From the IMG/VR virus record IMGVR_UViG_3300036761_001580, positions 5,198 to 69,197 of that record: DNA of 64,000 nucleotides. One strand, written 5' to 3'. This document shows, piece by piece, positions 6,022 to 28,802 of the stretch. The position numbers and the translations under genes are program-made. The notes under the pieces are model-generated. The model worked only from the letters and a program-made list of their open reading frames with translations. It had not been told where the DNA came from and ran no database searches. Numbering within the stretch: the stretch's first letter is position 1; each line of letters begins with the position of its first letter. Source of the DNA: a virus.

Positions 6022-6056
6022 AGTATAACCCGGACACCCGTAGGGATTTTTAAATT
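6022..6056 (-). promoter_or_regulatory. Late-type promoter motif
   Basis: Minus reading caaTTTAAAAATCCctacgggtgtccgggtTATACTcc. Confidence 0.4.
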
Positions 6057-6075
6057 GAAAGGGTACCTGGAGGAG

Positions 6076-6576
6076 CTAACGTGGTCTCTTCGAACCGACG
6101 TACTGGGTCGCAGGGTTGCTTTCCTGGTACTGCTCGGGCTGCTGAGCACCGGGAATCTGGTCGGGCATCACGACCTGCTTGAAGTGATCCCACCAAGAAG
6201 TCGGCTGCCAGGCCTGTTGCTGCGGCTGCTGCGGCTGTTTCGGCTGCCTCTTCTTGCGAGGTGCTGGCGCGGCAGGCTGCCCACCAGCGCCAGCCCCGGG
6301 AACGGCCCCTCCGGACTGCTGAAGCTCCTGCACTTGAGCTTGCAGATCGGCGATGCCCGTTCCCAGGATCTGAAGCTCCTGCATCTGGGCTTGCAGGTTG
6401 CCCAGCCCATCCTCCAGAGCCTTCAACCGACCTTCCGTGTCCGCCACGGGAACGCCCGAAGGACCCTCGGGCATGATGAAGTCACCAGAGGCAGGATCCG
6501 TGGCGTAGTCTTGCGCAAGAACCACTCTTCCGATCCTGCGAATCGCCTGTTCCGACAAACCAAGACCTTTGCGCAT
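6076..6576 (-). CDS. Hypothetical coiled-coil protein (Gln-rich C-terminus)
   Basis: 166-aa ORF downstream of late-type promoter motif at 6596-6628. LQAQMQELQ...LQAQVQELQ heptad repeats. Confidence 0.45.
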   Translation of the reverse strand: MRKGLGLSEQAIRRIGRVVLAQDYATDPASGDFIMPEGPSGVPVADTEGRLKALEDGLGNLQAQMQELQILGTGIADLQAQVQELQQSGGAVPGAGAGGQPAAPAPRKKRQPKQPQQPQQQAWQPTSWWDHFKQVVMPDQIPGAQQPEQYQESNPATQYVGSKRPR

Positions 6577-6595
6577 AGGACCTCCTGAAGGCCTC

Positions 6596-6628
6596 AGTAT
6601 ACCAAGGACGGTCTTGGATTTTTAAAGG
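6596..6628 (-). promoter_or_regulatory. Late-type promoter motif
   Basis: Minus reading cggccTTTAAAAATCCaagaccgtccttggTATACTgagg. Confidence 0.45.
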
Positions 6629-7485
6629 CCGTACGCGCCCGGATCGATGGGACCTGTGTACGGTTTCGTGTTCCGAATGTATTGATGGAAGTATTTTCCC
6701 TGGGAGTCGGCGGCGAGCAGGTCATCGAACTCCGACTGGGAGACGTTGCTGTACCTGTAGAGGGTCCGCGGGGTCGAGCGCTTCTCCGCGAAGATGATGT
6801 AGAGCAGCTCTTCCTCCGGAATGTACCCCACGGCCTCCAGGTTGCTCGACTTGACGGGGATCATCTCCGGCATGTCCCGCTTGTCTTCGAAGCCCGGAGG
6901 AGGCGGTGGGGGCTCCTCGGTCACGGGGATCCCCACGGGCTCAACCGGCGGGCCCGGCATCTCCTCCGGAGGCGGCGGGATGTTCGGCTCAGGTCCAGGA
7001 CCGTACCCCGGCGGCGCGGGCTCGGCCATCGGCTCAATGACTTCCTTCGGTTCCATGCTGTACATGTCTTCAGTACCTGGTTCCCTCTCGGGGAACGGCT
7101 CACCGAACTCCTCTTGGTACTCGTCCTCGGGACCTTGGCTCCACCAGTTCTTGAACCGGTCCTTCAGGTTCTGCCACCACTGCGCGTCCCGGTGCATCGC
7201 GGCCTTCACGAGCCGGTTCTCGATGGCCCGATCATCCAGCCCCGTGTTCTGGCGCAGGATGTCCCGCACAGCCCCAGAGCGCAGGAACTCGGCCACCGCG
7301 GCGGAGGCCGCGACGTTGCCGGTCCGGGGCCCGATGTCCAGCTCGGCGAGCGCCATCGTGAAGGTGAACCGCTCCTCCTCGGGAAGCTGGTTGAGGAGGT
7401 CCGAGTAGTGCTGCTGCCGAAGGATTCGCTCCTTGCCGGCGGACAGCTTGGCGGACTCTATCGCTTCATCGAGGGTGATCGCCAT
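6622..7485 (-). CDS. Hypothetical Pro-rich protein
   Basis: 287-aa ORF. Central PPPPEEMPGPPVEP proline tract. Immediately downstream of the terminase gene on the same strand. Confidence 0.45.
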   Translation of the reverse strand: MAITLDEAIESAKLSAGKERILRQQHYSDLLNQLPEEERFTFTMALAELDIGPRTGNVAASAAVAEFLRSGAVRDILRQNTGLDDRAIENRLVKAAMHRDAQWWQNLKDRFKNWWSQGPEDEYQEEFGEPFPEREPGTEDMYSMEPKEVIEPMAEPAPPGYGPGPEPNIPPPPEEMPGPPVEPVGIPVTEEPPPPPPGFEDKRDMPEMIPVKSSNLEAVGYIPEEELLYIIFAEKRSTPRTLYRYSNVSQSEFDDLLAADSQGKYFHQYIRNTKPYTGPIDPGAYGL

Positions 7486-7639
7486 CAGGAAGCTCCTTGC
7501 AGGTGGTGAACCACTCGCCGCAAACCTCAGGGCGGCAGTACGAGCAGCGCGAATTGTAGCACGGCGGAGGTGTCGCGGTTTTAACCTCGCGAGAGGCAGC
7601 GTCGACCTTGATGACCTCGACCGGCTTCCTCTTCGGCAT
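7480..7639 (-). CDS. Small Cys-rich (zinc-ribbon-like) protein, ~53 aa
   Basis: Own translation: MPKRKPVEVIKVDAASREVKTATPPPCYNSRCSYCRPEVCGEWFTTCKELPDGDHPR. ATG abuts the terminase stop (TAGATG). Below the ORF-track size cut-off. Confidence 0.25.
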
Positions 7640-9901
7640 CTACCAGTTCCCCCTACCGGTAGCGACCGTCCCGATGGCCGTCGTGTCGGTGGCCGCCATA
7701 CGCTTTCTTATATTCATACGCCGCTTCATGTTCGCCTGGCTGTCCACAATAGAATCCTGGATGAGATGGTGGACGCCGACGTAGCAGCGCGCGAGATCGT
7801 CCGAGTCCCGGCCGCGAACAGTGCCCTTCTTCGGGTTGAAGAACTTCTTCAGGTCCGGAGACCGCGTGAGCTTGAGCAGCTCGACCAGCGCGACGGACTG
7901 CCCTTGCATCTGCTCCTGCGGGGTCGCGATCACGAGGGCCCCCGTGTCCGTGATGCCCACGGTGTCCTCCGCATGTGGCGGAAGGAGCTTCACCCGGCCG
8001 TTGTAGGTCATCCGCAGGAAGTTCATGAAGTGGACCGGCCCGAGCTGGACCTTCGTCGTGATGATGCCCATCGTCCGGAGCTGCTGGATCGTGGACTCGG
8101 CGTTCCAGTGGTCGAACGCCACCCCGGCGATCCGGACCTTCTTCTGGACCTCGGCGATGATGTTCACGACCGAGTTGAACCAGATGTCCCGCTCCCGGGT
8201 CGGAACGATGCGCACGGAGAAGTCGATCACCGTGCACAGCATCTCGTTCATGTGATCGAACGGACGAGCGCCGGCCTTGTTCGAGGCGGTGAAGTAGTTC
8301 GCCATGCGGCGGCGGTTCTTCTGAGCCTCCATGATCATGTCGCCGTCGGCACCGACCGGCATGTTCGCGCCGAGGAACGTCCCCAGGTCCTCGGAGAAGA
8401 CGACCCCGTACTCGTCGACAGGCTCCATCCTGCCGCGGCCCACAGGAGCCCTCTGGCGAATGAGGGGCTCTCCGTCGGGGCCAGTCTCGTCGGACTCGAA
8501 GTCATCCACGTTGAGCCACTCGGAGTGCGCGCACACGAGCCCGAACGAGTCCCAGTTGAGCCCGGCGTCACCGAACAGGTAGTAGGGGTTGACGTGGTTC
8601 AGCTTGCACTCCTCGACCTCCATGCCGATGTACTTCTTGCCCGTCGTGTCCTCGAAGAACGAGGGCCGGAAGCGGGCGATGGGATCGCGGTCGAAGTCGA
8701 TGCTCTTCCAGAACCGCTTCGGGTCGTCCACGTAGGGGCTCTCGGCGTTCGGGGGGTTCGCCCCGAAGTCGCGCTCCGCGCCCATGGCGTCCTTCACGTA
8801 GTCGTCGTCGAAGACGTGCCGCGGCATCTGCGGGTTGAAGTCCCAGGTCGCGCCCTTCCAGTAGTACGTCCTCGGCAGGATCCCCTCGGCCGCCTTGTTG
8901 TAGTGCTCCATCGCCGGGTCGTCCTGCGAGATCGGCGAGGTCACGTTCAGCATCATCCCCAGGAAAGACGGAAGCTCGTTCTGCATCACCGCGGCGCGGA
9001 CCGTGGCGAGGGACTGGTTCAGCACGCGGTACAGCTCCTTCGCGGAGCGGCTGCCCTCGGTGTCCGCGAGACGAGCCCACTCGTCGATGGACGCCATGAT
9101 GCGCGTCTTGCCGGCGACACCGGCCGAGTCGCTGGCGATGCGGTTGTAGCGCACGCGCGCCCAGCCATCCAGGATGGCGTCGGCGTTGGTGTTGTACATC
9201 CAGCGGTCGACTTCCGAGGGTTGCTGAGACTCGAAGGCCTGGACCCACGAGGAGTAGCGCTGAATCCACGGAGAGTTCTTCCGCATCTCGCGGTACTTGG
9301 CGTAGATGGTCTGCTGCGCCTGGGTCGCGGTCGACGCGGAGAAGGTGACCTCGAACCACTCACTCTTCTCCTGCCTCAGCATCCTCTGGAGGTGGCCCTG
9401 GCCGAACATGGCCCGGCTCGAAATGAAGTTCTCGAAGTACCCTCCGATGTGAGCGCCCAGGTACGATTTCCCCGAGCGCATGCCGGCCAGGATGATCGTC
9501 TCGTTGTAGGCCTGGAGGATGCCGTCATGGAGCAGCTCGCGCTGCGTGCTGCCGCACCGCGGGCACACGAAGTCCGTCTCGCTCTCGACCCAGCAGAGCA
9601 GCACCTCGGACTCCAGGTACATCCTGCTCTTGCCCCAGCAGTCGACCGCCTCGGGCTTCATCGAGTTGCAGATCGGACAGCGCACCCCGAACAGGTCGCG
9701 CATGATCTGGTACTGGCGGGTGTGGTCGAACGTCGTGGGCACGTTCCAGTAGTCGAGCCCGGTCACCCACTCGCAGATGTTCGGAGCCGGCCGACGGAGG
9801 TACTCGACCTCGGGACCGGTCAAGCCGCTCGACGTCCTCGACTCCAGCGCGGTGTCGATTCTCCTGGACAGGGAATCGAGAAATCCAGTGCCTTCGGTCA
9901 T
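7640..9901 (-). CDS. terL: Terminase large subunit (N-terminal Zn-ribbon insert, ATPase plus nuclease)
   Basis: 753-aa ORF. P-loop AGMRSGKSY, Walker-B-like RIMASIDEWA, acidic C-terminal nuclease-like region (FGDAGLNWD...). Size and position are typical of a large terminase. Confidence 0.6.
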   Translation of the reverse strand: MTEGTGFLDSLSRRIDTALESRTSSGLTGPEVEYLRRPAPNICEWVTGLDYWNVPTTFDHTRQYQIMRDLFGVRCPICNSMKPEAVDCWGKSRMYLESEVLLCWVESETDFVCPRCGSTQRELLHDGILQAYNETIILAGMRSGKSYLGAHIGGYFENFISSRAMFGQGHLQRMLRQEKSEWFEVTFSASTATQAQQTIYAKYREMRKNSPWIQRYSSWVQAFESQQPSEVDRWMYNTNADAILDGWARVRYNRIASDSAGVAGKTRIMASIDEWARLADTEGSRSAKELYRVLNQSLATVRAAVMQNELPSFLGMMLNVTSPISQDDPAMEHYNKAAEGILPRTYYWKGATWDFNPQMPRHVFDDDYVKDAMGAERDFGANPPNAESPYVDDPKRFWKSIDFDRDPIARFRPSFFEDTTGKKYIGMEVEECKLNHVNPYYLFGDAGLNWDSFGLVCAHSEWLNVDDFESDETGPDGEPLIRQRAPVGRGRMEPVDEYGVVFSEDLGTFLGANMPVGADGDMIMEAQKNRRRMANYFTASNKAGARPFDHMNEMLCTVIDFSVRIVPTRERDIWFNSVVNIIAEVQKKVRIAGVAFDHWNAESTIQQLRTMGIITTKVQLGPVHFMNFLRMTYNGRVKLLPPHAEDTVGITDTGALVIATPQEQMQGQSVALVELLKLTRSPDLKKFFNPKKGTVRGRDSDDLARCYVGVHHLIQDSIVDSQANMKRRMNIRKRMAATDTTAIGTVATGRGNW

Positions 9902-11066: not shown

Positions 11067-11628
11067 CTACGGCTGGGGGCTGGGAGCCGGAGGTTGCGCC
11101 TTGCGGGCCGCAACGTCTGCGACCCGCTGTAACAGTGGCTCCAAGGCCGCTGCGTCGAGCAGCGGGGGCTGTTTTGCCTGGTCTGTTTTTAATTCTATTT
11201 TTTCCAGGCGAACGTTGTTGGCTTCGAGGTTGTACGACAGACCCGACAGGTACCAGACGAAGGCGACCCCCGAGGTGAGCAGCACGAGGATGAGCGCTCC
11301 GAGCCCCCGGGCGTACCACTTGTACATGTCGGAGATGCTCTTCTGCACCTCCTTCACGTTGCTCTGGACCTCTACCACGGTCTTCTGGGTGTCCTGCGCC
11401 TCGCGCTGAGCCTCCTTGGCGAGACCCTCGATGCCCGAGAAGCGCGAGTCCTGTGCGCAGGCGTGAGGCTTCCTGGTCTCGATCTCGACTCGTTCGATGT
11501 CCGCACCCAGTGCTTCCATTTTTGTCTCCACGACCTCTTTCGAGGCCTTCTTGTCTAGCTCTTTCCAGACCATCTTGAAAGCGCTCGGTCCCTCGACTGG
11601 GGTGTCGTACGTGTGTTCTCTCTCCACC
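11067..11628 (-). CDS. Membrane-anchored coiled-coil protein
   Basis: Start taken at ATG 11628 (GAGGAactgcATG), not the ORF-track upstream Met, which would overlap the promoter motif at 11678-11709. One TM helix, LGALILVLLTSGVAFVWYL. Confidence 0.4.
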
Positions 11629-11677
11629 ATGCAGTTCCTCGATTCAAGAGTAGTACCCCTCACGCAATGTACTACAA

Positions 11678-11709
11678 GATCTGTTGGATTTCTAAATCCT
11701 GCGAACCCC
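11678..11709 (-). promoter_or_regulatory. Late-type promoter motif (TTTAGAAATCC-N-TAGTACA)
   Basis: Minus-strand reading cgcaggaTTTAGAAATCCaacagatcttgTAGTACAttg. Member of a ~9-copy motif family upstream of leftward structural genes. Confidence 0.45.
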
Positions 11710-11879
11710 TGCCGAGCCCTGCCAATACTGCGGAATCCGTATTCCCCCCTCTGGAACCGGAATTTGAACTGCTCTTCGAGCCGTATAAGGTAAGTCGTAC
11801 GGACCATTCGGATAAATCTTGGTAAATAGACTTATGAGATTGGATCAAACTCTGTAGGATGATCCCGATCCCAAGTAGT

Positions 11880-11917
11880 TCCTGTACATAGAAAAAGATC
11901 CTAAGGGGTGACTAGTA
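11880..11917 (+). promoter_or_regulatory. Possible late-type promoter on plus strand (TAGAAAAAGATCC-N11-TAGTATG)
   Basis: Resembles the late motif in plus orientation. Followed by a 34-codon ORF/palindrome and a terminator at 12146-12178. Confidence 0.25.
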
Positions 11918-11921
11918 TGAC

Positions 11922-11982
11922 GAAGATCCTGAAGATCCTGAAGAATTCCGAAGGAATTCTGAAAGGATCTGAAGGATCTGAG
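11922..11982. repeat. ~60-bp near-perfect palindrome
   Basis: gaagatcctgaagatcctgaagaattc cgaagg gaattctgaaaggatctgaaggatctg. Two GAAGATCCTG units mirrored by two GGATCT units around a GAATTC core. Confidence 0.7.
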
Positions 11983-12145
11983 GAATACCCCCGGAAAAAA
12001 CGCAAAAACAGGCAAAAACAGGGTTGAAAAGATAGAAATACTGTAAAAACAGCCTAAAAGCAAGAACACCAGTAGTACCTCAGCAGAAAAGCGCAAGAAT
12101 ACCCCCGCCGCTTGACTCCCTGCACTTGATGGTTACGTGCGTTTT

Positions 12146-12178
12146 GGGCCTTAAAAAGGCCCTTGATTCCTTGTTTTC
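12146..12178 (+). terminator. Rho-independent terminator-like hairpin (GGGCCTTaaaaAGGCCC + T-rich tail)
   Basis: gggccttaaaaaggccc followed by ttgattccttgttttcg. Confidence 0.45.
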
Positions 12179-12261
12179 GGGCGGTTACTCAGGAGAGCTG
12201 CCCTCTTGAGGGTCGAAATTGGGGGTCAGCTTCCCCTTGACTTCCAACCCTATGAAGGTAT

Positions 12262-12476
12262 GCCACTAACCGTCGGCAAGGTATAGTCAAGAGGCTAGTT
12301 CGCTATAAATCATTGAACAATTTTGACAGTATTTCGGGTTATGAAACGTATAACTTCTAATAAAATAGTAACCATAGGTGCAACCACCAGGAAGGTATAG
12401 TCAAGACCTCTTTGAAGGGTTCAAATCTAGGGCATTTTCAACTTCCAGAGGGGGTACCAAGGGGGTCTTGACCATA
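12262..12476. promoter_or_regulatory. Three copies of a 17-bp site GTCTTGAC(T/C)ATACCTT flanking an AT-rich stretch
   Basis: Copies at ~12266-12283 (-), ~12393-12409 (-) and ~12458-12475 (+). An AT-rich putative unwinding element at 12300-12380 lies between them. Confidence 0.5.
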
Positions 12477-12499
12477 CCTTGGCGGTGGTTAAAACCAAG

Positions 12500-12715
12500 G
12501 TTCAAGGTAGGGTTCAAGGTACCTTTGAAGGTTTCCAAAGGTAGGGTTCAAGGTAGGGTTGAAAGTAGGGTTCAAGGTACCTTGAAGACCTTCAAGGTAG
12601 GGTTCAAGGTCTTGAAGGTACCTTGGAGACCTTCAATGTAGGGTTCAAGGTACCTTAAAAGTCTTCAAGGTAGGGTTCAAGGTACCTTGAAGGTCTTCAA
12701 GGTAGGGTTGAACTC
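12500..12715. repeat. Iteron array: ~7 tandem ~30-bp units GGTAGGGTTCAAGGTACCTTGAAGNCCTTCAA
   Basis: Directly visible. Each unit contains the palindrome CAAGGTACCTTG. ORFs 12378..12641 and 11845..12096 here are artefacts of the repeats. Confidence 0.75.
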
Positions 12716-12730
12716 TAGGACGTGGAGGCC

Positions 12731-15534: not shown

Positions 15535-15598
15535 TTTGCTTCTCCTTGCAATCCTGTGACGAAGGGACCAGCCCTCCGAATGTTCTCGGTTGCGCCCA

Positions 15599-15632
15599 GT
15601 ATACTATAGGGGGTTTCGGATTTCTAAAACGG
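15599..15632 (-). promoter_or_regulatory. Late-type promoter motif
   Basis: Minus-strand reading ccgTTTTAGAAATCCgaaaccccc TATAGTAT. Confidence 0.45.
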
Positions 15633-15636
15633 AGGG

Positions 15637-17015: not shown

Positions 17016-17049
17016 CGGGGCTGCCTCACGCTGCGGACTTTATGTAAAG

Positions 17050-18526: not shown

Positions 18527-18535
18527 CCGAGCACC

Positions 18536-19795: not shown

Positions 19796-19866
19796 GACTA
19801 TGAAACCTCTTTCTTGAGGTTTTCAGACTGCATAGATTTGCAAGATTCGTGCATACCTATTCGTCT

Positions 19867-21168
19867 CTACTTCCCGATCAACCGCTTGAAGAAGTTCTTC
19901 TTCCCCTCCACTGGCTCCACGATCTCAACCTTCGTCAGCTCCTTCAGCGCCCCGCGCTTCTTCAGCTCGGTCTCCAGCAGGCCGACCTTCTCGGTCCAGG
20001 ACTTCGTCTTCCCGTCGAGCTGATCGACCAGCTCGAAGACCTCCGCGGGAGCGTCCTGCAAGGCCTTCATGAGGGTGGTCAACAGCTCCCGGACCTTGAC
20101 CGCCTGGCTCTCGCAGATGTTCAGCTTGGCCTTCAGCTCCTCGACCTCCACGGACTCCCGGTCGATGGCCTTCTGGAGGTCGGAGAAGTGGTCCTCCTTC
20201 AGGAGACTCTCGACCAGATCGGCCGGCAGCTGGAAGCCCTCACCCAGGCGTGCCTTCTGCACGGCGAGGGTCTCCTTGATGGCCCCGAGCTTCTCCTCGA
20301 TCTTCTTCTGGAAGGAGTCGAACTGACGCTGCGCAATGCCGGCCTTCTCGGCTTCGACCGCGGTGCGGCGGATCAGCTCGTTCTCCAGGTACGAATTCTT
20401 GTACATGTCGACCTGCTGCATCCGCAGCATCTCGGTCTTGTCGTCCAGGGCGGCCCGGTGCTGCGCGATGAGGCGCTCGGCGTCCGAGACGACACCCTTG
20501 ATCATGATGTCCTTGTCGGTCTGGAGCCTCTGCAACATGCCGTCGAAGGAGTTCATCTTCGCCGTCAACGCAACGTTCATGTCGGTGAGCTGCTTCTCGG
20601 TCTTGGCCTTGAACTCGGCCAGGGCCGCGTTGCTCAGCTCGACCTCGCGCTGCACGCGGCGGGCGTTGTCCCAGGTCCACTCCTTCCGGGTCTCCAGATC
20701 GGACATGATGGCCCGGATCGTCTGGTCGCGGCCGATGATGGTGTCCAAGGCCTTGTTCTGGGCTTCCTTGGACTGCTCCAGCAGCATGGCGACGGAGGCG
20801 AGGCTCTTGCCTGTACTGTCGTTCAGGCCCGAAGCGAGCTTCTCACGCTGGACGAGGGTCGTCGTGATGAAGTCCTTCAGGGAGTCGTAGCTCGCCTGCA
20901 AGAGTGAGCCGCGCTTCTTCAGGTCCTCCAGGACCTCCTGCCGGAAGTTCGCCAGCTCCTGGAGCGTGTCGATCTCCGGATCGTCCTTCGCCGGGTCGAC
21001 GGAGATGGACTCCTTGTTCTTGTTGAACAGGGAGAGCATGCCGAACTGCCGCTCGAACTCCGACAGCTGAAGCCGGCGGACCGTCGAGGTGGTATCGCTC
21101 TCGCGATAGGTCAGGATGACCTCGTCCCCATCCTGCACAATGCCTTCCAACCGTCCTTCGAGCGACAT
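19867..21168 (-). CDS. Long coiled-coil protein (tail assembly / tape-measure-like?)
   Basis: 433-aa, almost entirely heptad-rich alpha-helical sequence, within the tail module. Confidence 0.4.
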   Translation of the reverse strand: MSLEGRLEGIVQDGDEVILTYRESDTTSTVRRLQLSEFERQFGMLSLFNKNKESISVDPAKDDPEIDTLQELANFRQEVLEDLKKRGSLLQASYDSLKDFITTTLVQREKLASGLNDSTGKSLASVAMLLEQSKEAQNKALDTIIGRDQTIRAIMSDLETRKEWTWDNARRVQREVELSNAALAEFKAKTEKQLTDMNVALTAKMNSFDGMLQRLQTDKDIMIKGVVSDAERLIAQHRAALDDKTEMLRMQQVDMYKNSYLENELIRRTAVEAEKAGIAQRQFDSFQKKIEEKLGAIKETLAVQKARLGEGFQLPADLVESLLKEDHFSDLQKAIDRESVEVEELKAKLNICESQAVKVRELLTTLMKALQDAPAEVFELVDQLDGKTKSWTEKVGLLETELKKRGALKELTKVEIVEPVEGKKNFFKRLIGK

Positions 21169-21177
21169 GTTCTCCTC

Positions 21178-23310
21178 CTACCAGCTGACCTGAATGGAAC
21201 TGACGGCCGTCGAAGCCGCGGTCAGCTCCAGGTGCATTTCGAACCAGTTGATCGGCATGTACGCGCCGCCCAGACCGAAGGATCCGAACGACACGTCCAA
21301 GGTGTTGCCGGCGCTCGCCGTGTAGATCGGCACGTCGAGCACGTTGTCGTACACGCCGCCGTTCTGCACGACGAGGTTGAACGTCGCCGCCCAAAGGACC
21401 CCGCTGTGTGCTCGGCCGCGGATGCGCCAGACGCCGTTGTTGATGAAGACCCACAGGTGCGTCCGGCTCGCGAGCAGGTCCGCCACGACGGCTGCGGCGT
21501 TGAACGTGAACCGGCAGCTCCCGTGGTACGTCCCGTCGCTGGCCTGGTACCGCCTGTAGAACGTCTGCGTGGCGGGCTGAGCGCCACTGTAGTTCGCGTT
21601 CGCCCCCAGACCCGGCCGATGACCCGTCCAGTTCGTAACGCGCCTCTGGAGCTGTCCTGACTGCACCATGGCCCCGGCGTTGTCGTCATAGGCCTGCATG
21701 TCCTGGGTGCTGACCCAAGCCACGCCCGGGTTGTACGCACCGACCAGGTTGAACGCGGTCCGGCGGCGGGCCTCGTCCGTGTAGTATTCGTTCAGCCCGT
21801 CGCTGTCGGGCAGGAACGTGTCGATGCAGACCGCGTTCCCGCCGTCGTTCACCCAGGCACCCGCGACCCAGTCCTCAGGGCGGGAGTAGACGAAAGCGTT
21901 CGCCGGGCTGATGAAGCGGTAGTTCACCCGGGTGATCGTGTAGGTCGCCGAGTGGGACGCGCCCGTGTTGTTCCAGGCGGTCGTCCAGCCGATCAGGTCC
22001 GCGCTGTTCAGTGTGAGCCAGCCGACACCACCACCGCTGCCGATCCCCCAGTCTGTGGCGTTGAGCGTCACGAAGGGCTGCGGGTACGACTCGCAGTTGA
22101 TGTTGTCGATCCCGGTGATGCCGATGGTGAACGTGTCGTTCCGGATGTAGTAGCGGATGCCGCTCAGCCACTTCCCGACGATGACGTTGTCGACGATGGT
22201 GATCGGGGGAGGGCCGCCCGAGATCACCGCGGGGTTCGTGTTCGGATCGTGGAACAGGTTGCCGCTGCTGTAGGTGAAGATGCCCTCGGCCCCGTCATCG
22301 TGCACCAGGGTGATGCTGTACTTCCCACCCTGGGGGATGATGTTGTCGATGAGGACCGCCACGGACAGGCTCGCCTGGAACTTGTACGAGTCCCCAGCCA
22401 GCGCGCCGATGTTGATCGTGATGTTGTTGACCGTCGCGCTGTAGCCGACCGCGGGGATACCGACCGGACCGTGGTCCGCCAGGATCGCTCCGTTCGCGCT
22501 CGTCACGAAGACGCGGAACGTCGAGCTGCCGTCGTTCAGCAGGATCGAGAAGTTCCCCGCCAGGGTGTAGGGGATCGGGCCGCCGATGCCTGGAGGTGTC
22601 TGATGGAAGCCGCCGTAGGAGTTCCCCGCCACCCAACCGGTGATGTCGAACGCGCCCGGGTTGGAGAGGTACCGCGCCGAGGTCGCGTACGCCGGCACCA
22701 GGGCATTCGTCGTCCCGTCCATCGTGTTGAAGTGAGACACGAAGGCCGGCGGGTGGATGAAGGCGTTGACCTGGGTTGGGTCGACGTCCAGCTGCGCGAG
22801 CACACCGTCGTACGCGGCCGGATCCTGTCCGTTGACGAAGTTCAGCTTCGTGACGCCGGGCCCGAGAGGGGCTCCGTTGAACAGGATGCTGATGCCGCCG
22901 GCCACTGTCGCGAACTCCAAACCGTCCTCGGTCGGCTTGACCACGACCTGTTCGCCCGCATGACCCGTGTAGTCGGCGGGGACGTCCTGGAGGTCCGTGA
23001 AGAAGTTGGCCCCGGGGACACTGGCCCCACCGTACTTGTAGGTGCTCACCTGGGCCGAGGTCTGGAGGAACCCATCGAGGCGCACTTGAACGAGCCCCTC
23101 GTCGATCCACTGGCTCAAGGTGTTCGCGAAATCGGCATCGAACTGGACTTCGTGGAGGTCCAACTCAACGTACGACTGAACCGGGACCGTGATCTTCACG
23201 GTCTTTCGAGCACCACCTGTGATGTCGCCACCCACGAGAGACAAAGGGTGTCCATGACCCGAGAGATGGGTCAAGTTCGAGATCCTGAGGGTGTGCCTGA
23301 CCTGCGGCAT
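21178..23310 (-). CDS. Large tail fibre / receptor-binding protein
   Basis: 710-aa. N-terminal F(T)DLQDVPADYTGHAGEQVVVKPTEDGLEF repeat shared with tailspike 26936..28744. Confidence 0.5.
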   Translation of the reverse strand: MPQVRHTLRISNLTHLSGHGHPLSLVGGDITGGARKTVKITVPVQSYVELDLHEVQFDADFANTLSQWIDEGLVQVRLDGFLQTSAQVSTYKYGGASVPGANFFTDLQDVPADYTGHAGEQVVVKPTEDGLEFATVAGGISILFNGAPLGPGVTKLNFVNGQDPAAYDGVLAQLDVDPTQVNAFIHPPAFVSHFNTMDGTTNALVPAYATSARYLSNPGAFDITGWVAGNSYGGFHQTPPGIGGPIPYTLAGNFSILLNDGSSTFRVFVTSANGAILADHGPVGIPAVGYSATVNNITINIGALAGDSYKFQASLSVAVLIDNIIPQGGKYSITLVHDDGAEGIFTYSSGNLFHDPNTNPAVISGGPPPITIVDNVIVGKWLSGIRYYIRNDTFTIGITGIDNINCESYPQPFVTLNATDWGIGSGGGVGWLTLNSADLIGWTTAWNNTGASHSATYTITRVNYRFISPANAFVYSRPEDWVAGAWVNDGGNAVCIDTFLPDSDGLNEYYTDEARRRTAFNLVGAYNPGVAWVSTQDMQAYDDNAGAMVQSGQLQRRVTNWTGHRPGLGANANYSGAQPATQTFYRRYQASDGTYHGSCRFTFNAAAVVADLLASRTHLWVFINNGVWRIRGRAHSGVLWAATFNLVVQNGGVYDNVLDVPIYTASAGNTLDVSFGSFGLGGAYMPINWFEMHLELTAASTAVSSIQVSW

Positions 23311-24090
23311 CTACGCTTTCGTCCTGCCCCTGCTGTCCGCGAACTGTGACACCGCCTCCACAACCAGACCCTCGATCAAGGTGCGAAGCTCGGCCTCCTT
23401 GGTCGGATCGAAGCCTTCGAGGTTCACCGAGACCGGCGGCGGGGTTGCGCCACTGACCGAAGCGACCGATCCGTTCTTCGCGGTGACGATCAGCTGGTGC
23501 TCCCCGCCGAGGTTCAAGGCCTGGGTGATGACGTCGGAGACGTACTCTTCGAGGTCGTTGACGCCGCGCTCGCTCCCGGCCATCGGGATGTTCAAGGATG
23601 CCGAGATCGACACCGGGGCCTGGGGGCCCTCGGAGTCCTCGACGTAGAAGTTCCGGATATCGTAGGCCCTCTTCAGGAGGGCGAGGAACCGTTGAGCCGA
23701 CCGGAGGGTCCAGTCCTTCTTCAGGGGCTCCTTCGGCATGCCCTTCGGGCGCTTCGGGGACAGCCCGGGGGTGATCCCGGGGCCCTTCCGCATGTCCTTG
23801 AGGGTGTCGTCCAGGAGCTTGCTGCTCTGCTCCGCCATGGGATCCTTGGCCTCCTCGTTGAGGACGGTCATGAAGATGTCCCGGTCGGAATCGGGTTCTT
23901 TGTACTCCCAGGCTTGACGGGTGGGGACCGGAGAAGCCTCCTGCGCTCGGGCTTGCCGCGGCTCCTGTCGAACAGGTATGGGCTTCGGGAGGGAGGCGAC
24001 CACCTCGTCCAGGTTCATCCCGCCCGTCTTCTCGGCCGTGAGACGGCGAAGATGATCCATCGTACCACTGGTCAAACCCGATTTGCGCAT
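23311..24090 (-). CDS. Hypothetical protein
   Basis: Start taken at ATG 24090 (AAGGAGGaccttccATG), downstream of late motif 24115-24149. The ORF-track upstream Met overlaps the promoter. Confidence 0.4.
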   Translation of the reverse strand: MRKSGLTSGTMDHLRRLTAEKTGGMNLDEVVASLPKPIPVRQEPRQARAQEASPVPTRQAWEYKEPDSDRDIFMTVLNEEAKDPMAEQSSKLLDDTLKDMRKGPGITPGLSPKRPKGMPKEPLKKDWTLRSAQRFLALLKRAYDIRNFYVEDSEGPQAPVSISASLNIPMAGSERGVNDLEEYVSDVITQALNLGGEHQLIVTAKNGSVASVSGATPPPVSVNLEGFDPTKEAELRTLIEGLVVEAVSQFADSRGRTKA

Positions 24091-24114
24091 GGAAGGTCCT
24101 CCTTGGACAGGGGA

Positions 24115-24149
24115 CACTATACCACGCGCGGATGTCGAATCTTTAAACT
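24115..24149 (-). promoter_or_regulatory. Late-type promoter motif
   Basis: Minus reading cagTTTAAAGATTCgacatccgcgcgtgGTATAGTGtc. Confidence 0.4.
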
Positions 24150-24153
24150 GAGG

Positions 24154-24633
24154 TCAGCCGACGATTTCCGACCACATCTGGTCCAGATGCCGGATCGAGC
24201 GGGCCGAGCGGATGTCGACGTGGTTCATGGAGCGGCCCTGACGGACGATGAGGATCGCCAGGTCATCCGGATGCAGCTCCACGATGGAGCCGTCGTCCAT
24301 CTCGACGCTTTGCTCGGGCTGGCCGGACTTGTACAGCGCGCGAGCAACCCGGTACAGGTCGTCGTCCGCGATGCCGTCGAAGTTCGCCTCGACCTGCCGG
24401 CCACCACCGCCTCCACCCCCACCGTAGCCCCGCTCGTCGGGGTAGCCCGGGTCGCCGTCGAAGACCTCGCTGTTCCCGTACTCCAGCCCCATCTGCTGCG
24501 CCCGTTGGGCCGCGATCTGGAAGGCCGCCTCTGGGAGGGCGTTGGCGATTCGGTTCAACGAGTCTTCACTCGAAATGCCCACATCTTCCGGCTTCTCAAC
24601 CGGGGGCATCCAAAATCCGGGGCGTCCTCTCAT
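24154..24633 (-). CDS. Hypothetical protein (poly-Gly tract)
   Basis: 159-aa. RBS AAGGAGG. GGGGGGGG tract. Confidence 0.4.
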   Translation of the reverse strand: MRGRPGFWMPPVEKPEDVGISSEDSLNRIANALPEAAFQIAAQRAQQMGLEYGNSEVFDGDPGYPDERGYGGGGGGGGRQVEANFDGIADDDLYRVARALYKSGQPEQSVEMDDGSIVELHPDDLAILIVRQGRSMNHVDIRSARSIRHLDQMWSEIVG

Positions 24634-24651
24634 GGGGTCCTCCTTGGCCTG

Positions 24652-24688
24652 AGTAGCATACTACAGGATCCCGACTATTTCTTAAAGG
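24652..24688 (-). promoter_or_regulatory. Late-type promoter motif
   Basis: Minus reading ccTTTAAGAAATAGtcgggatcctgTAGTATGCtac. Confidence 0.4.
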
Positions 24689-25202: not shown

Positions 25203-25925
25203 TCAGCCGAACATCAGCTCGGCGTAATTGAATTTTTTGCACAGACAATTCTCAATGAAAACAGGGGTTTCCGAGAAACCCACAGTTTTCCCACAGATGA
25301 TGTGGACGTGGGACGCGACCATGCTCTTCCCTTGGGCAAAGTCGATGCCCTTCTGGGTCGGCTGGTACATGCCGGCCTTGCCGCCCGCGGAGTTCATGGA
25401 AGGCATCTTCTCCACCAGACCCCACCGTGTCAAGTAGGCACCGTCGGTAGCCGCCTTGGACGTCGCCGGCAGCAGCTCGCGCGTGGAGTACCACCGCGGC
25501 TCCTTCTGGTACGCCTTGACCAGCTTGATCAGGAACAGTGCCATCTCCGTGTGGAGCTTGCGCCGGTAGAGCTTCACCCGCTGCTCGCAGATCGGGCAGA
25601 AGTTGTCCTTCTCGTCCTGCCCATCGAACACCCTCCGACGGGCATGAGCCAGGGCCACATCGTCGAAGCTCGCGTCGAGTTCGGTGTACACCACCTGGGG
25701 TCCCCAGGAGAAGATCATGGTCGGGAAGTAGGACCCTTGGACGCCCAAGATCATGACCCCATCAGGGTTGCCATTCGCGAAGCGTACGGATGCCGGTATC
25801 GGAAGGCTGTGCGCAGCCTCCTGCACCCAGTAGTTCCGGTACTGCACTTTCGCAGGATGCGGGATGGTGGGCATGGTCTTTCGGAACCCAGAGAAGAGGC
25901 CGGTCATCTCGTCGACTTGGCTCAT
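25203..25925 (-). CDS. Hypothetical protein
   Basis: 240-aa. CPICEQ motif. Preceded by sigma70-like promoter 25968-25996. Confidence 0.4.
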   Translation of the reverse strand: MSQVDEMTGLFSGFRKTMPTIPHPAKVQYRNYWVQEAAHSLPIPASVRFANGNPDGVMILGVQGSYFPTMIFSWGPQVVYTELDASFDDVALAHARRRVFDGQDEKDNFCPICEQRVKLYRRKLHTEMALFLIKLVKAYQKEPRWYSTRELLPATSKAATDGAYLTRWGLVEKMPSMNSAGGKAGMYQPTQKGIDFAQGKSMVASHVHIICGKTVGFSETPVFIENCLCKKFNYAELMFG

Positions 25926-25967: not shown

Positions 25968-25996
25968 ACTATAGATCAGCCTGTGCGAGATGTCAA
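25968..25996 (-). promoter_or_regulatory. Sigma70-like promoter TTGACA-N17-TATAGT
   Basis: Minus reading ctcTTGACAtctcgcacaggctgatcTATAGTatc. Confidence 0.55.
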
Positions 25997-26005: not shown

Positions 26006-26878
26006 CTAGCGAATGGTGTTGTACAGCTCTTTGCCGAGGATCTTCTCGATGATCTGTCCGGAGTCGACCTCGAAGAGTTGGGGCATGCTGATGTTCTCGT
26101 CCTCCGGGTCCATGCCTTCCCGCGCCATCTCCATCGCTTCGCTCTCGGAGCTGTAGGTGCCGCCGTACCCGTCAGCGTAGAAGCCCTGCACGAGGTCTTG
26201 AAGGAGGTCCATGACCTCCCGGCCGGACTTAACGAAATCGAAAGCGACGTAGCCTTCTCCTTCGAACGGGGAGCTGGAATAGGAATCAGGGTCTTCGGAA
26301 TCGATGAAGAGTGGACCAGTGTACAGGTCCGCGTTCAGGTAGCGGATCTTGCGCTTCGTGTCCTCGTCGAGCTGGCTCTCGTAGAACTCAGCCTGCCTGT
26401 TGATCTCATCCTCGACCTCGCTCGCGGCCTTCTTCCGCTGAGCAGCCGTGATCGCCTGGTCCCAGGCGGATTCCGCGGCCTCGTCCTGCGGGTTGAACAT
26501 CAGCGCGCTGGTCTGGGTCTCCGCGCTCGCCTGGTTGAGAGCCTCCCACACTACACTGGGGGTGATCCCGTCCGGAGGAATATTCTGGAGGTACGGGAGG
26601 GCAACCACGGGGTCGACGAGGACCTCTCTGCCGAGGGTGTCTTTGACGTAGACCAGCTCCTGACTGGAATCCTGAGTGGGGGCCGGGGCCACGGTGAACG
26701 GGTTCACCCCGGCACCTTGGGGAACCGGCCAGACAGTGCCGTCGGGTTGCTTGACGTCCCTCGGGCCGAGGCTGTCGAGCATCTGCTGGAGCCTGTCCGC
26801 GAGCGCCGCCTGGCGAGTGCTGAAGAACTTGGCTAAGCGGTCGATGGCCCCGGACTCTGCGATTCGTGTCGTCTTCAT
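26006..26878 (-). CDS. Hypothetical protein
   Basis: 290-aa. RBS GGAGGA. Downstream of late motif 26897-26934. Confidence 0.4.
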   Translation of the reverse strand: MKTTRIAESGAIDRLAKFFSTRQAALADRLQQMLDSLGPRDVKQPDGTVWPVPQGAGVNPFTVAPAPTQDSSQELVYVKDTLGREVLVDPVVALPYLQNIPPDGITPSVVWEALNQASAETQTSALMFNPQDEAAESAWDQAITAAQRKKAASEVEDEINRQAEFYESQLDEDTKRKIRYLNADLYTGPLFIDSEDPDSYSSSPFEGEGYVAFDFVKSGREVMDLLQDLVQGFYADGYGGTYSSESEAMEMAREGMDPEDENISMPQLFEVDSGQIIEKILGKELYNTIR

Positions 26879-26896
26879 GAAGGTCCTCCGTGCTTG

Positions 26897-26934
26897 GAAT
26901 ATACTACAGGTCTCTCTGGATTTTTAAAAGGGGG
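26897..26934 (-). promoter_or_regulatory. Late-type promoter motif
   Basis: Minus reading cccccTTTTAAAAATCCagagagacctgTAGTATATtc. Confidence 0.45.
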
Positions 26935-26935
26935 T

Positions 26936-28744
26936 CTACGGGATGGGACCGATTGCCGCTGCGATCCTGTCGAGAGCAGCCGCCACGGTCGCGGGAACGG
27001 GCCCCACCCAGTTGCCGGGGACCGCGGGAATGTACGGAACGCCCTGAGCTGGAACGTACCTGCGCGCGGGTCCGAGCGTGGCAAGGTTCGAGCCCGGGAG
27101 AACGTAGCCGTTCAGGATGGAGTAGTCGGTCGTGTTCCCGAAGCACGAGTTCCCGGACAGCTCGCAAATGGAGCCCGCCTCAGCGTAGATGCCTCGGTTG
27201 CAGAGGGTGCAGATGTTCCCGACCGCCAGGACCCGGGCAATGGCCGGCGCGACACCGCCGTCGATGGAGATGCCTTCATCGGTGCACTCGACGCAGCGGT
27301 TGTTGAGCACGACCACGTCGCAGTCGTCGTCACAGTCGATGCCCTCGATGCACTTGTAGGCGTCGTTTTCGATGACGTACCCTGTGTTCCGGACAGCGAC
27401 CGGGAGCCCAATGGAGTCGATCTTGAGCCCCTCGCCGTTCCCAGTGAACGACTGGATCCGATTCCCTTCCACCCGGAAGTTCGTGCAGTTCTGGAGCATG
27501 AACCCCCGGGAGTTCAGAGCCGCACCATCCACGTAGCAGCCGTAGAAGATCGGTTTGTTGAACCCTCGCAAAAGGAGTGCCGCGCCCTCGGTGCCGTCCT
27601 TGCACGCCTTGTAGAACGAGCAGGAGACGAACGAGATGCCGTCCGACATCTCGGCTGGCTGTGGCGGCTTATCGTAGCTGTCGGGGCCGACGCTCCGATG
27701 GAAGGACATGAGCACCGCAGAGCCGGCGGTGACCTCCTCGAAGTGCAGGTTGTGGAAGATGAGATCCTGGCACTTGGAGCCCTGATCACGGAACGTGATC
27801 CCTGCGCCCTGGGCGTTGTTGTCGTCGGTCGTGTAGGCCGTGAACCCGAACCCGCTGACGATGTGATCGTGTGCCCCATCCACGATCTTGATGCACTTCG
27901 TCCCCGTCAAGAGGGGTCCGTAGCCGATACCTGCGCGGATGGTGAGCACCATGGTCGACGGCAGGGTGATCGGGCTGTAGGTCGCGTTCGTCCGGACCTC
28001 GATCACGTCTCCGTCCGCCGCGGCGGCGATGGCCGTCTGGAGGTCACCGGCCCCCACCCCGGACACGATCACGGTCGCTGGAGCCGCGAGCGCTGCATCG
28101 ATCTTCCCCAGGACCACCGAGAGGTCTGGCAGGGTGGCGGGGGGCACCACGAACTCCAACCCGCCTTCAGCTGCGTTGACTCGAACCAGCTTCAAGGACT
28201 GACCCACGTAGGTACCCGGGACATCCGAGAGGTCCGTGAAGGCCCCCGCGCCGCCGCCCCCGACCCCGAACTCCAAGCCGTTCTCTGCCGCCTTGACCTT
28301 GACGAACTTCCCGCCTTGGAGGGCGTAGGCGGCTGGGACATCGGTGAGGTCTGTGAACGCAGCAGCTCCACCGCCCCCGACCCCGAACTCCAAGCCGGTC
28401 GCGGTCGGGTTGACCTTGACGACCTTCCCCGCCTGCCCAACGTAGGACTGCGGGACGTCGGTCAGCTTGGTGAACTGTCCACCACCCACGATCTCCGAGG
28501 TGTCCCTCTCCGCCAGGGACCTCACCACGTCCGCGGCCAGGACGTCTCCATCCATCGTGACGATGGCCTTGCTGGACTCTACGAAGTTCGCCAGGTTGTA
28601 CAGGAACTCGGAGTCCTCCTGAACTTCGTGCAGGAGCACCGAGTCTGGATGGAGGGGATCCACCTTTACCCGGACGTGAAGTCCTTCGATGGAAAGGTGC
28701 GCACTGCCCACGACAGTGATGATGAGGGTCTTGATCGTCGTCAT
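26936..28744 (-). CDS. Tailspike with right-handed beta-helix (pectate-lyase-like) domain
   Basis: 602-aa. N-terminal FT(D/K)L(T/S)DVP..Y.GQ.GK.V.V....GLEF repeats (x3), then NNRCVECTDEGISIDGG / GNRIQSFTGNGEGLKID beta-helix-like repeats. Confidence 0.55.
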   Translation of the reverse strand: MTTIKTLIITVVGSAHLSIEGLHVRVKVDPLHPDSVLLHEVQEDSEFLYNLANFVESSKAIVTMDGDVLAADVVRSLAERDTSEIVGGGQFTKLTDVPQSYVGQAGKVVKVNPTATGLEFGVGGGGAAAFTDLTDVPAAYALQGGKFVKVKAAENGLEFGVGGGGAGAFTDLSDVPGTYVGQSLKLVRVNAAEGGLEFVVPPATLPDLSVVLGKIDAALAAPATVIVSGVGAGDLQTAIAAAADGDVIEVRTNATYSPITLPSTMVLTIRAGIGYGPLLTGTKCIKIVDGAHDHIVSGFGFTAYTTDDNNAQGAGITFRDQGSKCQDLIFHNLHFEEVTAGSAVLMSFHRSVGPDSYDKPPQPAEMSDGISFVSCSFYKACKDGTEGAALLLRGFNKPIFYGCYVDGAALNSRGFMLQNCTNFRVEGNRIQSFTGNGEGLKIDSIGLPVAVRNTGYVIENDAYKCIEGIDCDDDCDVVVLNNRCVECTDEGISIDGGVAPAIARVLAVGNICTLCNRGIYAEAGSICELSGNSCFGNTTDYSILNGYVLPGSNLATLGPARRYVPAQGVPYIPAVPGNWVGPVPATVAAALDRIAAAIGPIP

Positions 28745-28768
28745 CGGTGCCTCCTTTTGGCACCAAGC

Positions 28769-28802
28769 AGTGTACCATGCAGTCTTGGAAGGGTTTTAAA
28801 GC
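28769..28802 (-). promoter_or_regulatory. Late-type promoter motif (weaker variant)
   Basis: Minus reading cgagcTTTAAAACCCttccaagactgcatgGTACACtg. Confidence 0.35.

What the first reader, a model, noticed from the sequence alone, without database searches (positions are those of the whole stretch)
6022..28802. A second, non-sigma70 bipartite promoter motif precedes the structural operons
Read from sequence: eight intergenic gaps in the leftward structural block carry, on the transcribed strand, TTTA(A/G)AAATCC followed 11-14 nt later by (G)TAGTATA. Positions: 6022-6056, 6596-6628, 11678-11709, 15599-15632, 24115-24149, 24652-24688, 26897-26934 and 28769-28802. A ninth copy (62834-63863, last bp inside the downstream CDS) on the plus strand sits upstream of the M14 peptidase gene. 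Each is followed by a strong RBS and ATG within ~20-40 nt.

The upstream element is not TTGACA-like and is placed closer than a normal -35.

Inference: these are late promoters read by a phage-modified host RNA polymerase or a phage sigma/activator. That factor is not identified in the window.
Basis: partly seen in the sequence, partly recalled or inferred. Interest (0 to 1): 0.6.

Follow-up and report, generated by a model that had tools for sequence, protein, structure and literature searches.

The report
Late-gene promoter class of an uncultured jumbo phage
Nine gaps in front of virion, packaging and lysis genes of an uncultured ~212-kb phage carry one conserved two-part promoter: an ordinary bacterial -10 element plus a phage-specific box (TTTARAAATCC) where the -35 element normally sits, which looks like this phage group's late-gene switch, a familiar kind of device in a new version.

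Summary
The motif is real. All nine reported sites exist. They lie only in intergenic DNA, point at the downstream gene, and are far above chance. The same two boxes sit upstream of orthologous genes in relatives down to ~40-60% protein identity, while spacers and flanks diverge.

The downstream element is a canonical sigma70-family -10 hexamer (TAnnnT, 9/9), preceded by T at -15 and often G at -14 (extended -10). The upstream box occupies -37 to -27. It is in the same register (17-19 bp spacer) as the -35 of the phage's own consensus promoters (TCTTGACTTCC-N14-TATAnT), which head early genes. This is a second sigma70-family promoter class with a substituted -35 slot, not a non-sigma70 promoter.

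Most likely mechanism (inferred): host core RNA polymerase plus a sigma70-family sigma reads the -10, and a phage-encoded factor reads the box and times late expression. No sigma, RNA polymerase, MotA, AsiA or gp55 homologue was found among the 98 window ORFs. An early-promoter-driven 180-aa protein with three tandem HTH domains (34723-35265) is a weak candidate.

It is a new variant of a known kind (compare T4 middle, P23-45 late, Mu late promoters). Interest is moderate.

The parts
6022..6054 (-). Class-2 promoter P1: TTTAAAAATCC-N13-GGT-TATACT. Heads gene 5318-5992 and the co-directional genes downstream, including 3254-4942, which has a phage-cement domain.
   Evidence: Orthologous sites in L083, L084, L096. 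Cement domain.
6596..6626 (-). Class-2 promoter P2: TTTAAAAATCC-N11-TGG-TATACT. Heads gene 6076-6576.
   Evidence: Boxes kept and spacer changed in the 212-kb relative.
11666..11696 (-). Class-2 promoter P3: TTTAGAAATCC-N11-TAG-TACATT. Heads the operon 11067-11630 ... large terminase 7640-9901 ... 6622-7485.
15598..15628 (-). Class-2 promoter P4: TTTAGAAATCC-N11-TAG-TATACT, with a 63-nt leader. Heads gene 14875-15534 and six small genes.
   Evidence: Conserved upstream of the orthologous gene in L097, L081, L084, L096, L083 and L090.
24116..24147 (-). Class-2 promoter P5: TTTAAAGATTC-N12-TGG-TATAGT. Heads 23311-24090, the 710-aa and 433-aa ORFs, and the virion-structural-like ORF 18536-19795.
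24655..24686 (-). Class-2 promoter P6: TTTAAGAAATA-N12-TAG-TATGCT. Heads gene 24154-24633.
   Evidence: Related site in L084.
26898..26928 (-). Class-2 promoter P7: TTTAAAAATCC-N11-TAG-TATATT. Heads gene 26006-26878.
28769..28800 (-). Class-2 promoter P8: TTTAAAACCCT-N12-TGG-TACACT. Heads the beta-helix tail protein gene 26936-28744. It is the first promoter of the late block.
   Evidence: Orthologous site at the same boundary in L103, L104, L239, L241, L237/238.
62835..62866 (+). Class-2 promoter P9: TTTAGAAACAG-N12-TAG-TATAGT. Heads the M14-like peptidase gene (GTG at 62897; 464 aa in L234) plus an 89-aa gene.
36547..36576 (+). Weak, uncertain class-2-like site: TCTAAAAATGC-N10-TGG-TACACT before gene 36602-36946. 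It lies in the divergent control region and overlaps a minus-strand look-alike at 36522-36552 that carries the inverted repeat ATAACAC-N4-GTGTTAT.
34723..35265 (-). Candidate trans-factor: a 180-aa protein made of three tandem HTH domains. Pfam hits are Sigma70_r4 (14-44), HTH_7 (76-101) and Mor (149-173). PHROG hits include 'late transcriptional activator' families.
   Evidence: Orthologues in a syntenic module in L104, L237-L241.
35292..35320 (-). Class-1 consensus sigma70 promoter, TTGACT-17-TATATT, driving the triple-HTH gene. It is one of about 11 class-1 promoters in the window and serves as the contrast class.
   Evidence: A class-1 promoter sits before the orthologous gene in every relative examined.
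29387..29908 (-). Second candidate regulator: a 173-aa protein with a LexA DNA-binding winged-helix domain, encoded just upstream of the first class-2 promoter.
   Evidence: Position conserved in L104, L237-L241.

Best explanation
These are the late (post-early) promoters of an uncultured ~212-kb phage, and they have sigma70-family architecture.

Proposed mechanism:
- Host core RNA polymerase carrying a sigma70-family sigma recognises the -10 hexamer TAnnnT together with an extended -10 (T at -15, often G at -14, G at -13).
- The -35 hexamer is replaced by an 11-bp asymmetric box, TTTARAAATyC, at -37 to -27.
- That box is read by a phage-encoded DNA-binding activator or sigma-region-4 surrogate made from the consensus (class-1) early promoters.
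- Virion, packaging and lysis genes therefore come on only after early proteins accumulate.
- The best in-window candidate for the factor is the early triple-HTH protein 34723-35265. This assignment is speculative.

What is shown: the motif, its placement, its register, its conservation and its gene association. What is inferred: promoter activity, late timing, factor dependence and factor identity.
For: - Enrichment: the motif is strongly enriched and exclusively intergenic, oriented toward start codons with a ribosome-binding site.
- The -10: T-12, A-11 and T-7 are invariant in 9/9 sites, and T at -15 in 8/9.
- Register: the distance from the box's TCC to the -10 hexamer is 14 nt, the same as TTGACT-TCC to the -10 in class 1.
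- Phylogenetic footprint: both boxes are kept upstream of orthologous genes in relatives with 37-87% protein identity, while spacers and flanks change.
- Class partition: class 1 stands before regulators, nucleotide-metabolism-side genes and the Cas12f-like gene. Class 2 stands before the terminase operon, the tail protein gene, the operons holding the cement-domain and virion-like proteins, and the peptidase gene.
- Boundary: the early/late boundary (LexA-like/AAA genes, then the first class-2 promoter, then tail genes) is conserved in five further genomes.
- Box information: about 9-11 conserved positions, more than a usual -35 hexamer, and asymmetric. That fits a monomeric tandem-HTH reader.
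- Precedents: T4 AsiA/MotA (PMC7403470) and P23-45 gp39 with extended -10 late promoters (PMC3950348).
Against: - There are no transcript-mapping, timing or binding data.
- No homologue of a known appropriator or activator (MotA, AsiA, gp39, Mor proper) was detected in the window.
- The triple-HTH protein's best family hits are generic HTH modules, including homing-endonuclease DNA-binding tails. The fold search gave nothing significant. Its co-occurrence with the motif is confined to one clade, so it is not independent evidence.
- The box hexamer TAGAAA still matches TTGACA at 4/6 positions and 4/9 sites have a full TGn, so unaided host holoenzyme might suffice.
- One class-1 promoter (25968-25996) lies inside the late block.
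- About 148 kb of the genome was not seen.
Confidence: 0.55

Rival explanations
1. These are ordinary host-sigma70 promoters that need no phage factor. They would be extended -10 promoters with a weak -35 (TARAAA) and an A/T-rich upstream half that adds affinity. On this view the two 'classes' differ in strength, not in timing or reader.
For: The generic sigma70 scan already scores P2, P4 and P7 at 9/12. TG at -15/-14 is present in 4/9 window sites and in most sites in relatives. Spacing is in the normal 17-19 bp range.
Against: Non-consensus bases (A at -34, A at -31, TT at -37/-36) are conserved across diverged genomes, where drift toward or away from TTGACA would be expected. The two classes are discrete with no intermediates. 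They partition cleanly by gene function and position.
Confidence: 0.2
2. A phage-encoded alternative sigma factor, encoded outside the window, reads both elements, in the manner of phiEco32 gp36 or SPO1 gp28. On this view the box is its -35 and T(A/G)GTATAnT is its -10.
For: Jumbo phages of the RNA-polymerase-less group that includes PaBG and NCTB (weak terminase matches, ~24-27% identity) are reported always to encode sigma factors (PMC7824862). phiEco32 gp36 reads AATGTA at -11.5, which shares GTA with this motif (PMC12276001). The class-specific bases T-15/R-14/G-13 just upstream of the hexamer could be sigma-specific.
Against: No Sigma70_r2, Sigma70_r4-bearing sigma or gp55-like protein occurs among the 98 window ORFs. 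The only PHROG 'sigma factor' hit is the zinc-ribbon end of an endonuclease VII-like protein. The -10 hexamer is indistinguishable from that of class 1, which points to the same sigma region 2.
Confidence: 0.15
3. The box is an operator for negative control. A phage repressor, for example the LexA-DBD-like protein 29387-29908, would sit on extended -10 promoters and keep late genes off until it is removed.
For: A LexA_DNA_bind protein matching a PHROG 'transcriptional repressor' family is encoded immediately upstream of the first class-2 promoter, and this position is conserved. A Cro/CI-like HTH gene and a ParB-N-like gene hint at a temperate or plasmid-like lifestyle.
Against: The box is asymmetric, with no inverted or direct partner, whereas LexA-type winged-helix dimers bind dyads. 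The box sits exactly in the polymerase -35 slot with polymerase-like spacing tolerance.
Confidence: 0.07

Closest known systems
Phage T4 middle promoters (MotA box; AsiA/MotA sigma appropriation)
   Same: A sigma70-type -10 is kept. The -35 hexamer is replaced by a phage-specific box centred near -30. The same genome uses canonical -35/-10 promoters for early genes. The box is read by an early phage protein (PMC7403470).
   Different: The box sequence is unrelated (TTTARAAATyC against the TGCTT-type MotA box, the latter from my own knowledge). No MotA or AsiA homologue was detected in the window. Here the class heads virion, packaging and lysis genes rather than middle genes.
Thermus phage P23-45 middle/late extended -10 promoters with gp39
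   Same: There is a temporal switch from -10/-35 to extended -10 promoters while the host sigma still reads the -10 (PMC3950348). T-15/G-14 is frequent here.
   Different: P23-45 promoters lack a discernible -35-region element, whereas here an 11-bp box is conserved there. Only about half of the sites have a full TG. No gp39-like protein was identified.
Phage Mu middle/late promoters activated by Mor and C
   Same: A sigma70 -10, a poor -35, and a small phage HTH activator. The triple-HTH protein gives a Pfam Mor hit (4.5e-06) and matches PHROG 'late transcriptional activator' families.
   Different: From my own knowledge, Mor and C are dimers binding a dyad centred near -43.5. Here the site is asymmetric at about -32. 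The Mor hit covers only 25 residues of one HTH. The protein is a three-repeat array whose nearest relatives are multi-HTH proteins.
Phage sigma replacement systems (phiEco32 gp36/gp79; SPO1 gp28, gp33/34)
   Same: A separate conserved promoter consensus for post-early genes in a phage that lacks its own polymerase (PMC12276001).
   Different: Those systems change the -10 element, whereas here the -10 hexamer equals that of the early class. No sigma gene is present in the window.

Membership tests
sigma70-family (-35/-10) promoter | -10 hexamer TAnnnT (T-12, A-11, T-7) | tested here: met
   9/9 window sites and nearly all orthologous sites.
sigma70-family (-35/-10) promoter | TTGACA-like -35 hexamer 17+/-1 bp upstream | tested here: inconclusive
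   The slot holds TARAAA, which matches 3-4 of 6 positions, at 17-19 bp. The phage's own class-1 promoters have TTGACT/TTGACA there.
sigma70-family (-35/-10) promoter | Transcription start 6-9 nt downstream of the -10 | not testable with these tools
   Needs 5'-end mapping.
extended -10 promoter | TG at -15/-14 | tested here: inconclusive
   TGn at 4/9 window sites and TAG at the other 5 (one site is GGT rather than TGn). TG is in the majority in relatives.
T4 middle promoter / sigma appropriation | MotA-box sequence at about -30 | tested here: not met
   The box is TTTARAAATyC. The MotA-box consensus is recalled from my own knowledge.
T4 middle promoter / sigma appropriation | MotA and AsiA homologues encoded by the phage | tested here: not met
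   None among the 98 window ORFs by Pfam or PHROGs. The rest of the genome was not seen.
T4-type late promoter (gp55/gp33) | TATAAATA at -10, no upstream element, gp55-like sigma | tested here: not met
   The -10 region is T(A/G)GTATAnT and an upstream box is conserved. No gp55 or gp33 hit.
Mor/C-dependent promoter | Mor-family activator gene | tested here: inconclusive
   Pfam Mor hit at 27.1 bits against a cut-off of 24.9, but only residues 149-173 of a triple-HTH protein.
Mor/C-dependent promoter | Dyad-symmetric site centred near -43.5 | tested here: not met
   The box is asymmetric at -37 to -27, and nothing is conserved further upstream.
phage alternative-sigma promoter | Phage-encoded sigma factor | tested here: inconclusive
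   Absent from the window. About 148 kb of the related 212-kb genome was not examined.

The most novel reading that the evidence does not exclude
The TTTARAAATyC box is read by a previously undescribed kind of sigma-region-4 surrogate. In this reading the monomeric triple-HTH protein (34723-35265) docks on host RNA polymerase holoenzyme and supplies -35-slot recognition. That would be sigma appropriation evolved independently of MotA/AsiA in a clade of CRISPR-bearing jumbo phages.
Probability: 0.15. Interest if true: 0.6.

Novelty: new variant of a known kind. Interest (0 to 1): 0.38.

Why it matters
It gives a usable regulatory map for an uncultured jumbo-phage clade. Gene classes (early against late) can be assigned from sequence alone, including for the many ORFs with no homologues. 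The early/late boundary can be located in fragmentary metagenome contigs.

If the box reader is a new factor, it would add an independent example of how phages retarget host RNA polymerase by replacing -35 recognition while keeping the -10. The short, well-defined promoters could also serve as parts for expression control once a host is known.

Tried and rejected
- Scanning IMG/VR for the strict motif gave 73 loci. All but those of the near-identical relatives (the 212-kb contig and two short contigs) are single chance hits in AT-rich contigs.
A more specific class-1 pattern returned only two loci of the target contig, so the rest of the genome could not be assembled.
- Megablast and tblastn of structural genes against cultured phages gave nothing or only very distant terminases, so there is no cultured relative or host.
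- The genome-contig scan found only a 5.7-kb contig of 38% GC in a Desulfatiglandales MAG. It was rejected as a host indicator.
- The PHROG 'sigma factor' hit traced to a zinc ribbon in an endonuclease VII-like protein and was rejected.
- The single-sequence AlphaFold model of the triple-HTH protein (pLDDT 71.5, pTM 0.33) gave no significant PDB match.
- A search for triple-HTH homologues in IMG/VR found only the close relative.
- The Rctr197k annotation is too sparse to look for sigma genes.
- PDB sequence searches with the 433-aa and 710-aa ORFs were empty. PHROGs gave nothing for the genes directly behind most class-2 promoters. The 'structural' label therefore rests on the terminase, the tail protein, the cement-domain protein, a virion-like protein and the peptidase only.
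- Resemblances to the sigmaB/SigF, sigma28 and UP-element consensus sequences were considered from my own knowledge and rejected on spacing or position.


Full report
**Context.**
The window has ~60% GC, no tRNA genes and no Rfam hits. It encodes a large terminase, a tail protein, RtcB, thymidylate kinase and a Cas12f-like protein. At the nucleotide level it is 87-93% identical, over the aligned parts, to pieces of IMGVR_UViG_3300031952_000001, a 211,982-bp viral contig. Terminase relatives of 34-81% identity lie on metagenome contigs of 139-192 kb. The source is therefore an uncultured jumbo-phage clade. The nearest named relative is Virus Rctr197k, at 36% terminase identity. PaBG-type jumbo phages are at about 25%.

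My own gene call gives 98 ORFs and 85% coding:
- Minus-strand genes run from 36.5 kb down to 1.
- Plus-strand genes run from 36.6 to 56.7 kb.
- A 2.4-kb repeat array follows.
- Minus-strand genes run from 59.1 to 62.8 kb.
- A plus-strand peptidase gene starts at 62,897.

**The observation.**
All nine sites exist. Anchored on the downstream element they read [TTTA R A A A T y C]-N11-13-[T R G][T A n n n T].
- Exact TTTARAAATCC is present at only five sites, and exact TAGTATA at only three.
- Enrichment is not in doubt. The pattern with at most one mismatch gives 6 hits against 0.43 expected.
- A deliberately loose regex gives nine hits on both strands of the 64 kb. Every one is in a gap upstream of a co-directional start codon.
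- A two-block weight matrix gives ten hits >=20 bits, where Markov sequences of window or intergenic composition give about none. That matrix was trained on the sites.
- Independent support comes from unbiased 6-mer enrichment over 46 upstream regions.
- 100 kb of the equally GC-rich Rctr197k genome gave no hit >=18 bits.
There are 0 strong hits in the 85% of the window that is coding.

**Geometry.**
The downstream hexamer is TATACT, TATAGT, TATATT, TACATT, TACACT or TATGCT. T-12, A-11 and T-7 are invariant, which is the signature of sigma70-family -10 elements. It is preceded by T at -15 (8/9), by G or A at -14 (TGn at four sites) and by G at -13 (8/9).

The window also holds about eleven promoters of near-perfect sigma70 consensus, (c)TCTTGACTTCC-N14-(c)TATAnT. 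I call these class 1. In the 24-40 kb stretch the generic scan finds 14 sigma70-like sites against 3.1 expected.
- In class 1 the distance from the TCC that follows TTGACT to the -10 hexamer is 14 nt.
- In the finding's motif (class 2) the distance from the TCC that ends the box to the -10 hexamer is also 14 nt at four sites, 15 at four and 16 at one.
- The box therefore occupies -37 to -27. The '-35 hexamer' is TARAAA at a 17-19-bp spacer.

It is not 'closer than a normal -35'. The generic sigma70 scan even reports P2, P4 and P7 at 9/12.

**Conservation.**
In the 212-kb relative the orthologous promoters keep both blocks while the spacers and flanks change. For example, P8 reads TTTAAAACCCT-tccaagactgca-TGGTACACT in the window and TTTAGAACCTG-ttcagacctccg-TGGTACACT in the relative.

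I located orthologues of the downstream genes by tblastn in all fetched relatives. The same architecture appears in front of them at 37-87% protein identity:
- L081: TTTAGAAATCC-11-TAGTATACT.
- L083: TTTAAGAATCC-11-TGCTATACT and TTTAAGAATCC-12-GGGTATACT.
- L084: four sites.
- L096: two sites.
- L003: TTTAGTTTTCC-11-AGTTATACT.
- L090: TTTAAGAATTA-12-TGCTAGTAT.

Over 23 non-identical sites the box positions are T T T A (invariant), R, A, A, A, T, y, C, followed by a weak A-rich stretch. Site selection biases the TTTA columns. This is a phylogenetic footprint of two functional blocks at fixed distance.

**Gene association.**
Class 2 heads the following:
- The operon containing the large terminase (P3).
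- The beta-helix tail protein gene (P8).
- The run of genes that includes a cement-domain protein (P1).
- The run that includes 710-aa and 433-aa ORFs and a virion-structural-like protein (P5).
- An M14-like peptidase gene followed by an 89-aa gene (P9). These may be lysis genes, but that is an inference.

Most genes directly behind the promoters have no family hit. 'Structural' is thus supported for some operons and inferred by position for the rest.

Class 1 heads the triple-HTH gene, several small genes around 33-39 kb, plus-strand genes at 39.5, 48.5 and 50.0 kb, and the Cas12f-like gene. One class-1 promoter heads a gene inside the late block (25203-25925).

In five further genomes a syntenic module recurs: [triple-HTH]...[thymidylate kinase][LexA-DBD protein]([AAA protein])[tail genes]. 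I recovered these through orthologues of the triple-HTH protein (L104, L237/238, L239, L241). In every case a class-1 promoter precedes the triple-HTH gene. The first class-2 promoter sits immediately after the LexA-like or AAA gene. The two classes and the early/late boundary are clade-wide features.

**What reads it.**
The shared -10 argues that a sigma70-family region 2 opens both classes. The substituted, longer and asymmetric -35-slot element argues for a different reader of that slot.

No sigma (r2/r3/r4), RNA polymerase, gp55, gp33, MotA or AsiA homologue was found among the 98 window ORFs by Pfam or PHROGs. The listings show only the top 25 families per run. One 'sigma factor' PHROG hit proved to be a zinc ribbon of an endonuclease VII-like protein.

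DNA-binding proteins in the window:
- A 180-aa protein of three tandem HTH repeats. Its Pfam hits are Sigma70_r4, HTH_7 and Mor, and it matches PHROG 'late transcriptional activator' families. It also matches homing-endonuclease HTH tails.
- A LexA-DBD winged-helix protein.
- A Cro/CI-type HTH protein and a ParB-N-like protein.

A monomeric tandem-HTH protein suits an asymmetric 11-bp site better than a dimeric winged helix does, and it is made from a class-1 promoter. I therefore rank it first, but the evidence is circumstantial:
- Exhaustive HMMER shows only one further orthologue-like cluster, with many generic multi-HTH proteins beyond it.
- The single-sequence model is modest.
- Foldseek gives no significant PDB match.

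Jumbo phages without their own polymerase are reported to carry sigma factors (PMC7824862), so a phage sigma remains a live rival.

**Comparison with known systems.**
The logic resembles four known cases:
- T4 middle promoters, where the MotA box replaces the -35 under AsiA/MotA sigma appropriation (PMC7403470).
- P23-45, where gp39 displaces sigma region 4 and the phage's middle and late promoters are of the extended -10 class (PMC3950348).
- Mu Mor/C-dependent promoters.
- phiEco32 gp36/gp79 (PMC12276001).

None of the defining sequence features or proteins of these systems is met (see the membership table). The finding works like them but is not a member of any. Full-text searches for the motif strings found nothing relevant.

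**Verdict.**
The feature is real, conserved and well delimited. It is a second promoter class of a jumbo-phage clade. It is mislabelled as 'non-sigma70', and its spacing was misread. Late timing and factor dependence are plausible but unproven. It is a new variant of a well-known phage strategy, and interest is moderate.

Noticed in passing
window 56616-59080 (array) and 59109-60941 (-): A CRISPR-like array of at least 32 copies of a ~36-37-nt repeat (GTCGGGACTCCTAAGCCGTCCCGCAGGCACTGCAAC and variants, only 60-100% alike) at 72-74-nt spacing. On the minus strand it lies directly downstream of a 610-aa ORF with a Cas12f1-like TNB domain. That ORF has a class-1 promoter. This looks like a phage-borne compact type V system.
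   Followed up: partly
window ~25968-25996, 33540-33600, 35292-35320, 36126-36153, 38492-38519, 39392-39420 (all -); 39447-39475, ~48415-48450, ~49910-49941 (+); ~60975-61010 (-): A first promoter class of near-perfect sigma70 consensus, (c)TCTTGACTTCC-N14-(c)TATAnT. It stands before early or regulatory genes, is conserved in relatives, and is never mixed with the class-2 box.
   Followed up: yes
window 37473-37500 (-); L234 722-749, 1030-1057, 1715-1742: A third promoter flavour, ccccTTGAC(C/A)-N15-(A/G)TGGTTAnA(T/C)T. It is repeated before small genes just beyond the right end of the window and may be a separate temporal class.
   Followed up: no
window 36464-36601: A divergent control region between a ParB-N-like gene (36158-36526, -) and a 114-aa gene (36602-36946, +). 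It holds a perfect inverted repeat, ATAACAC-N4-GTGTTAT, overlapping back-to-back promoter-like sites. A Cro/CI-type HTH gene follows at 37023-37265.
   Followed up: partly
window 11631-12730, repeats at 11922-12022 and 12499-12709: A 1.1-kb ORF-free gap just upstream of the promoter of the terminase operon. It is filled with short tandem and inverted repeats (GGTTCAAGGTAG; TTCAAGGTACCTTGAAGACC). It may be a packaging site or an origin.
   Followed up: no
window 62886-62896: A run of 11 C between the AGGAGG ribosome-binding site and the GTG start of the M14-like peptidase gene. It is identical in an independent Logan contig (L234). The unusually long spacing suggests a possible slippage or translation-tuning tract.
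   Followed up: no
window 17076-17161: Three copies of a 30-nt unit (ATGGCTTGACTTTCACTTCCCAAGCCTACT on the plus strand) in the 158-nt gap upstream of gene 16014-17015. Function unknown.
   Followed up: no
window 15631-24677 vs L004 1-4822: The 212-kb relative shows no nucleotide match to this part of the late block, although the flanks are ~90% identical. This suggests a swapped structural module. Part of the interval was not covered by fetched loci.
   Followed up: no
window 730-1159 and 28217-28462: Long in-frame tandem repeats (228 nt x 1.9 and 117 nt x 2.1) lie within or next to tail or fibre-like ORFs.
   Followed up: no
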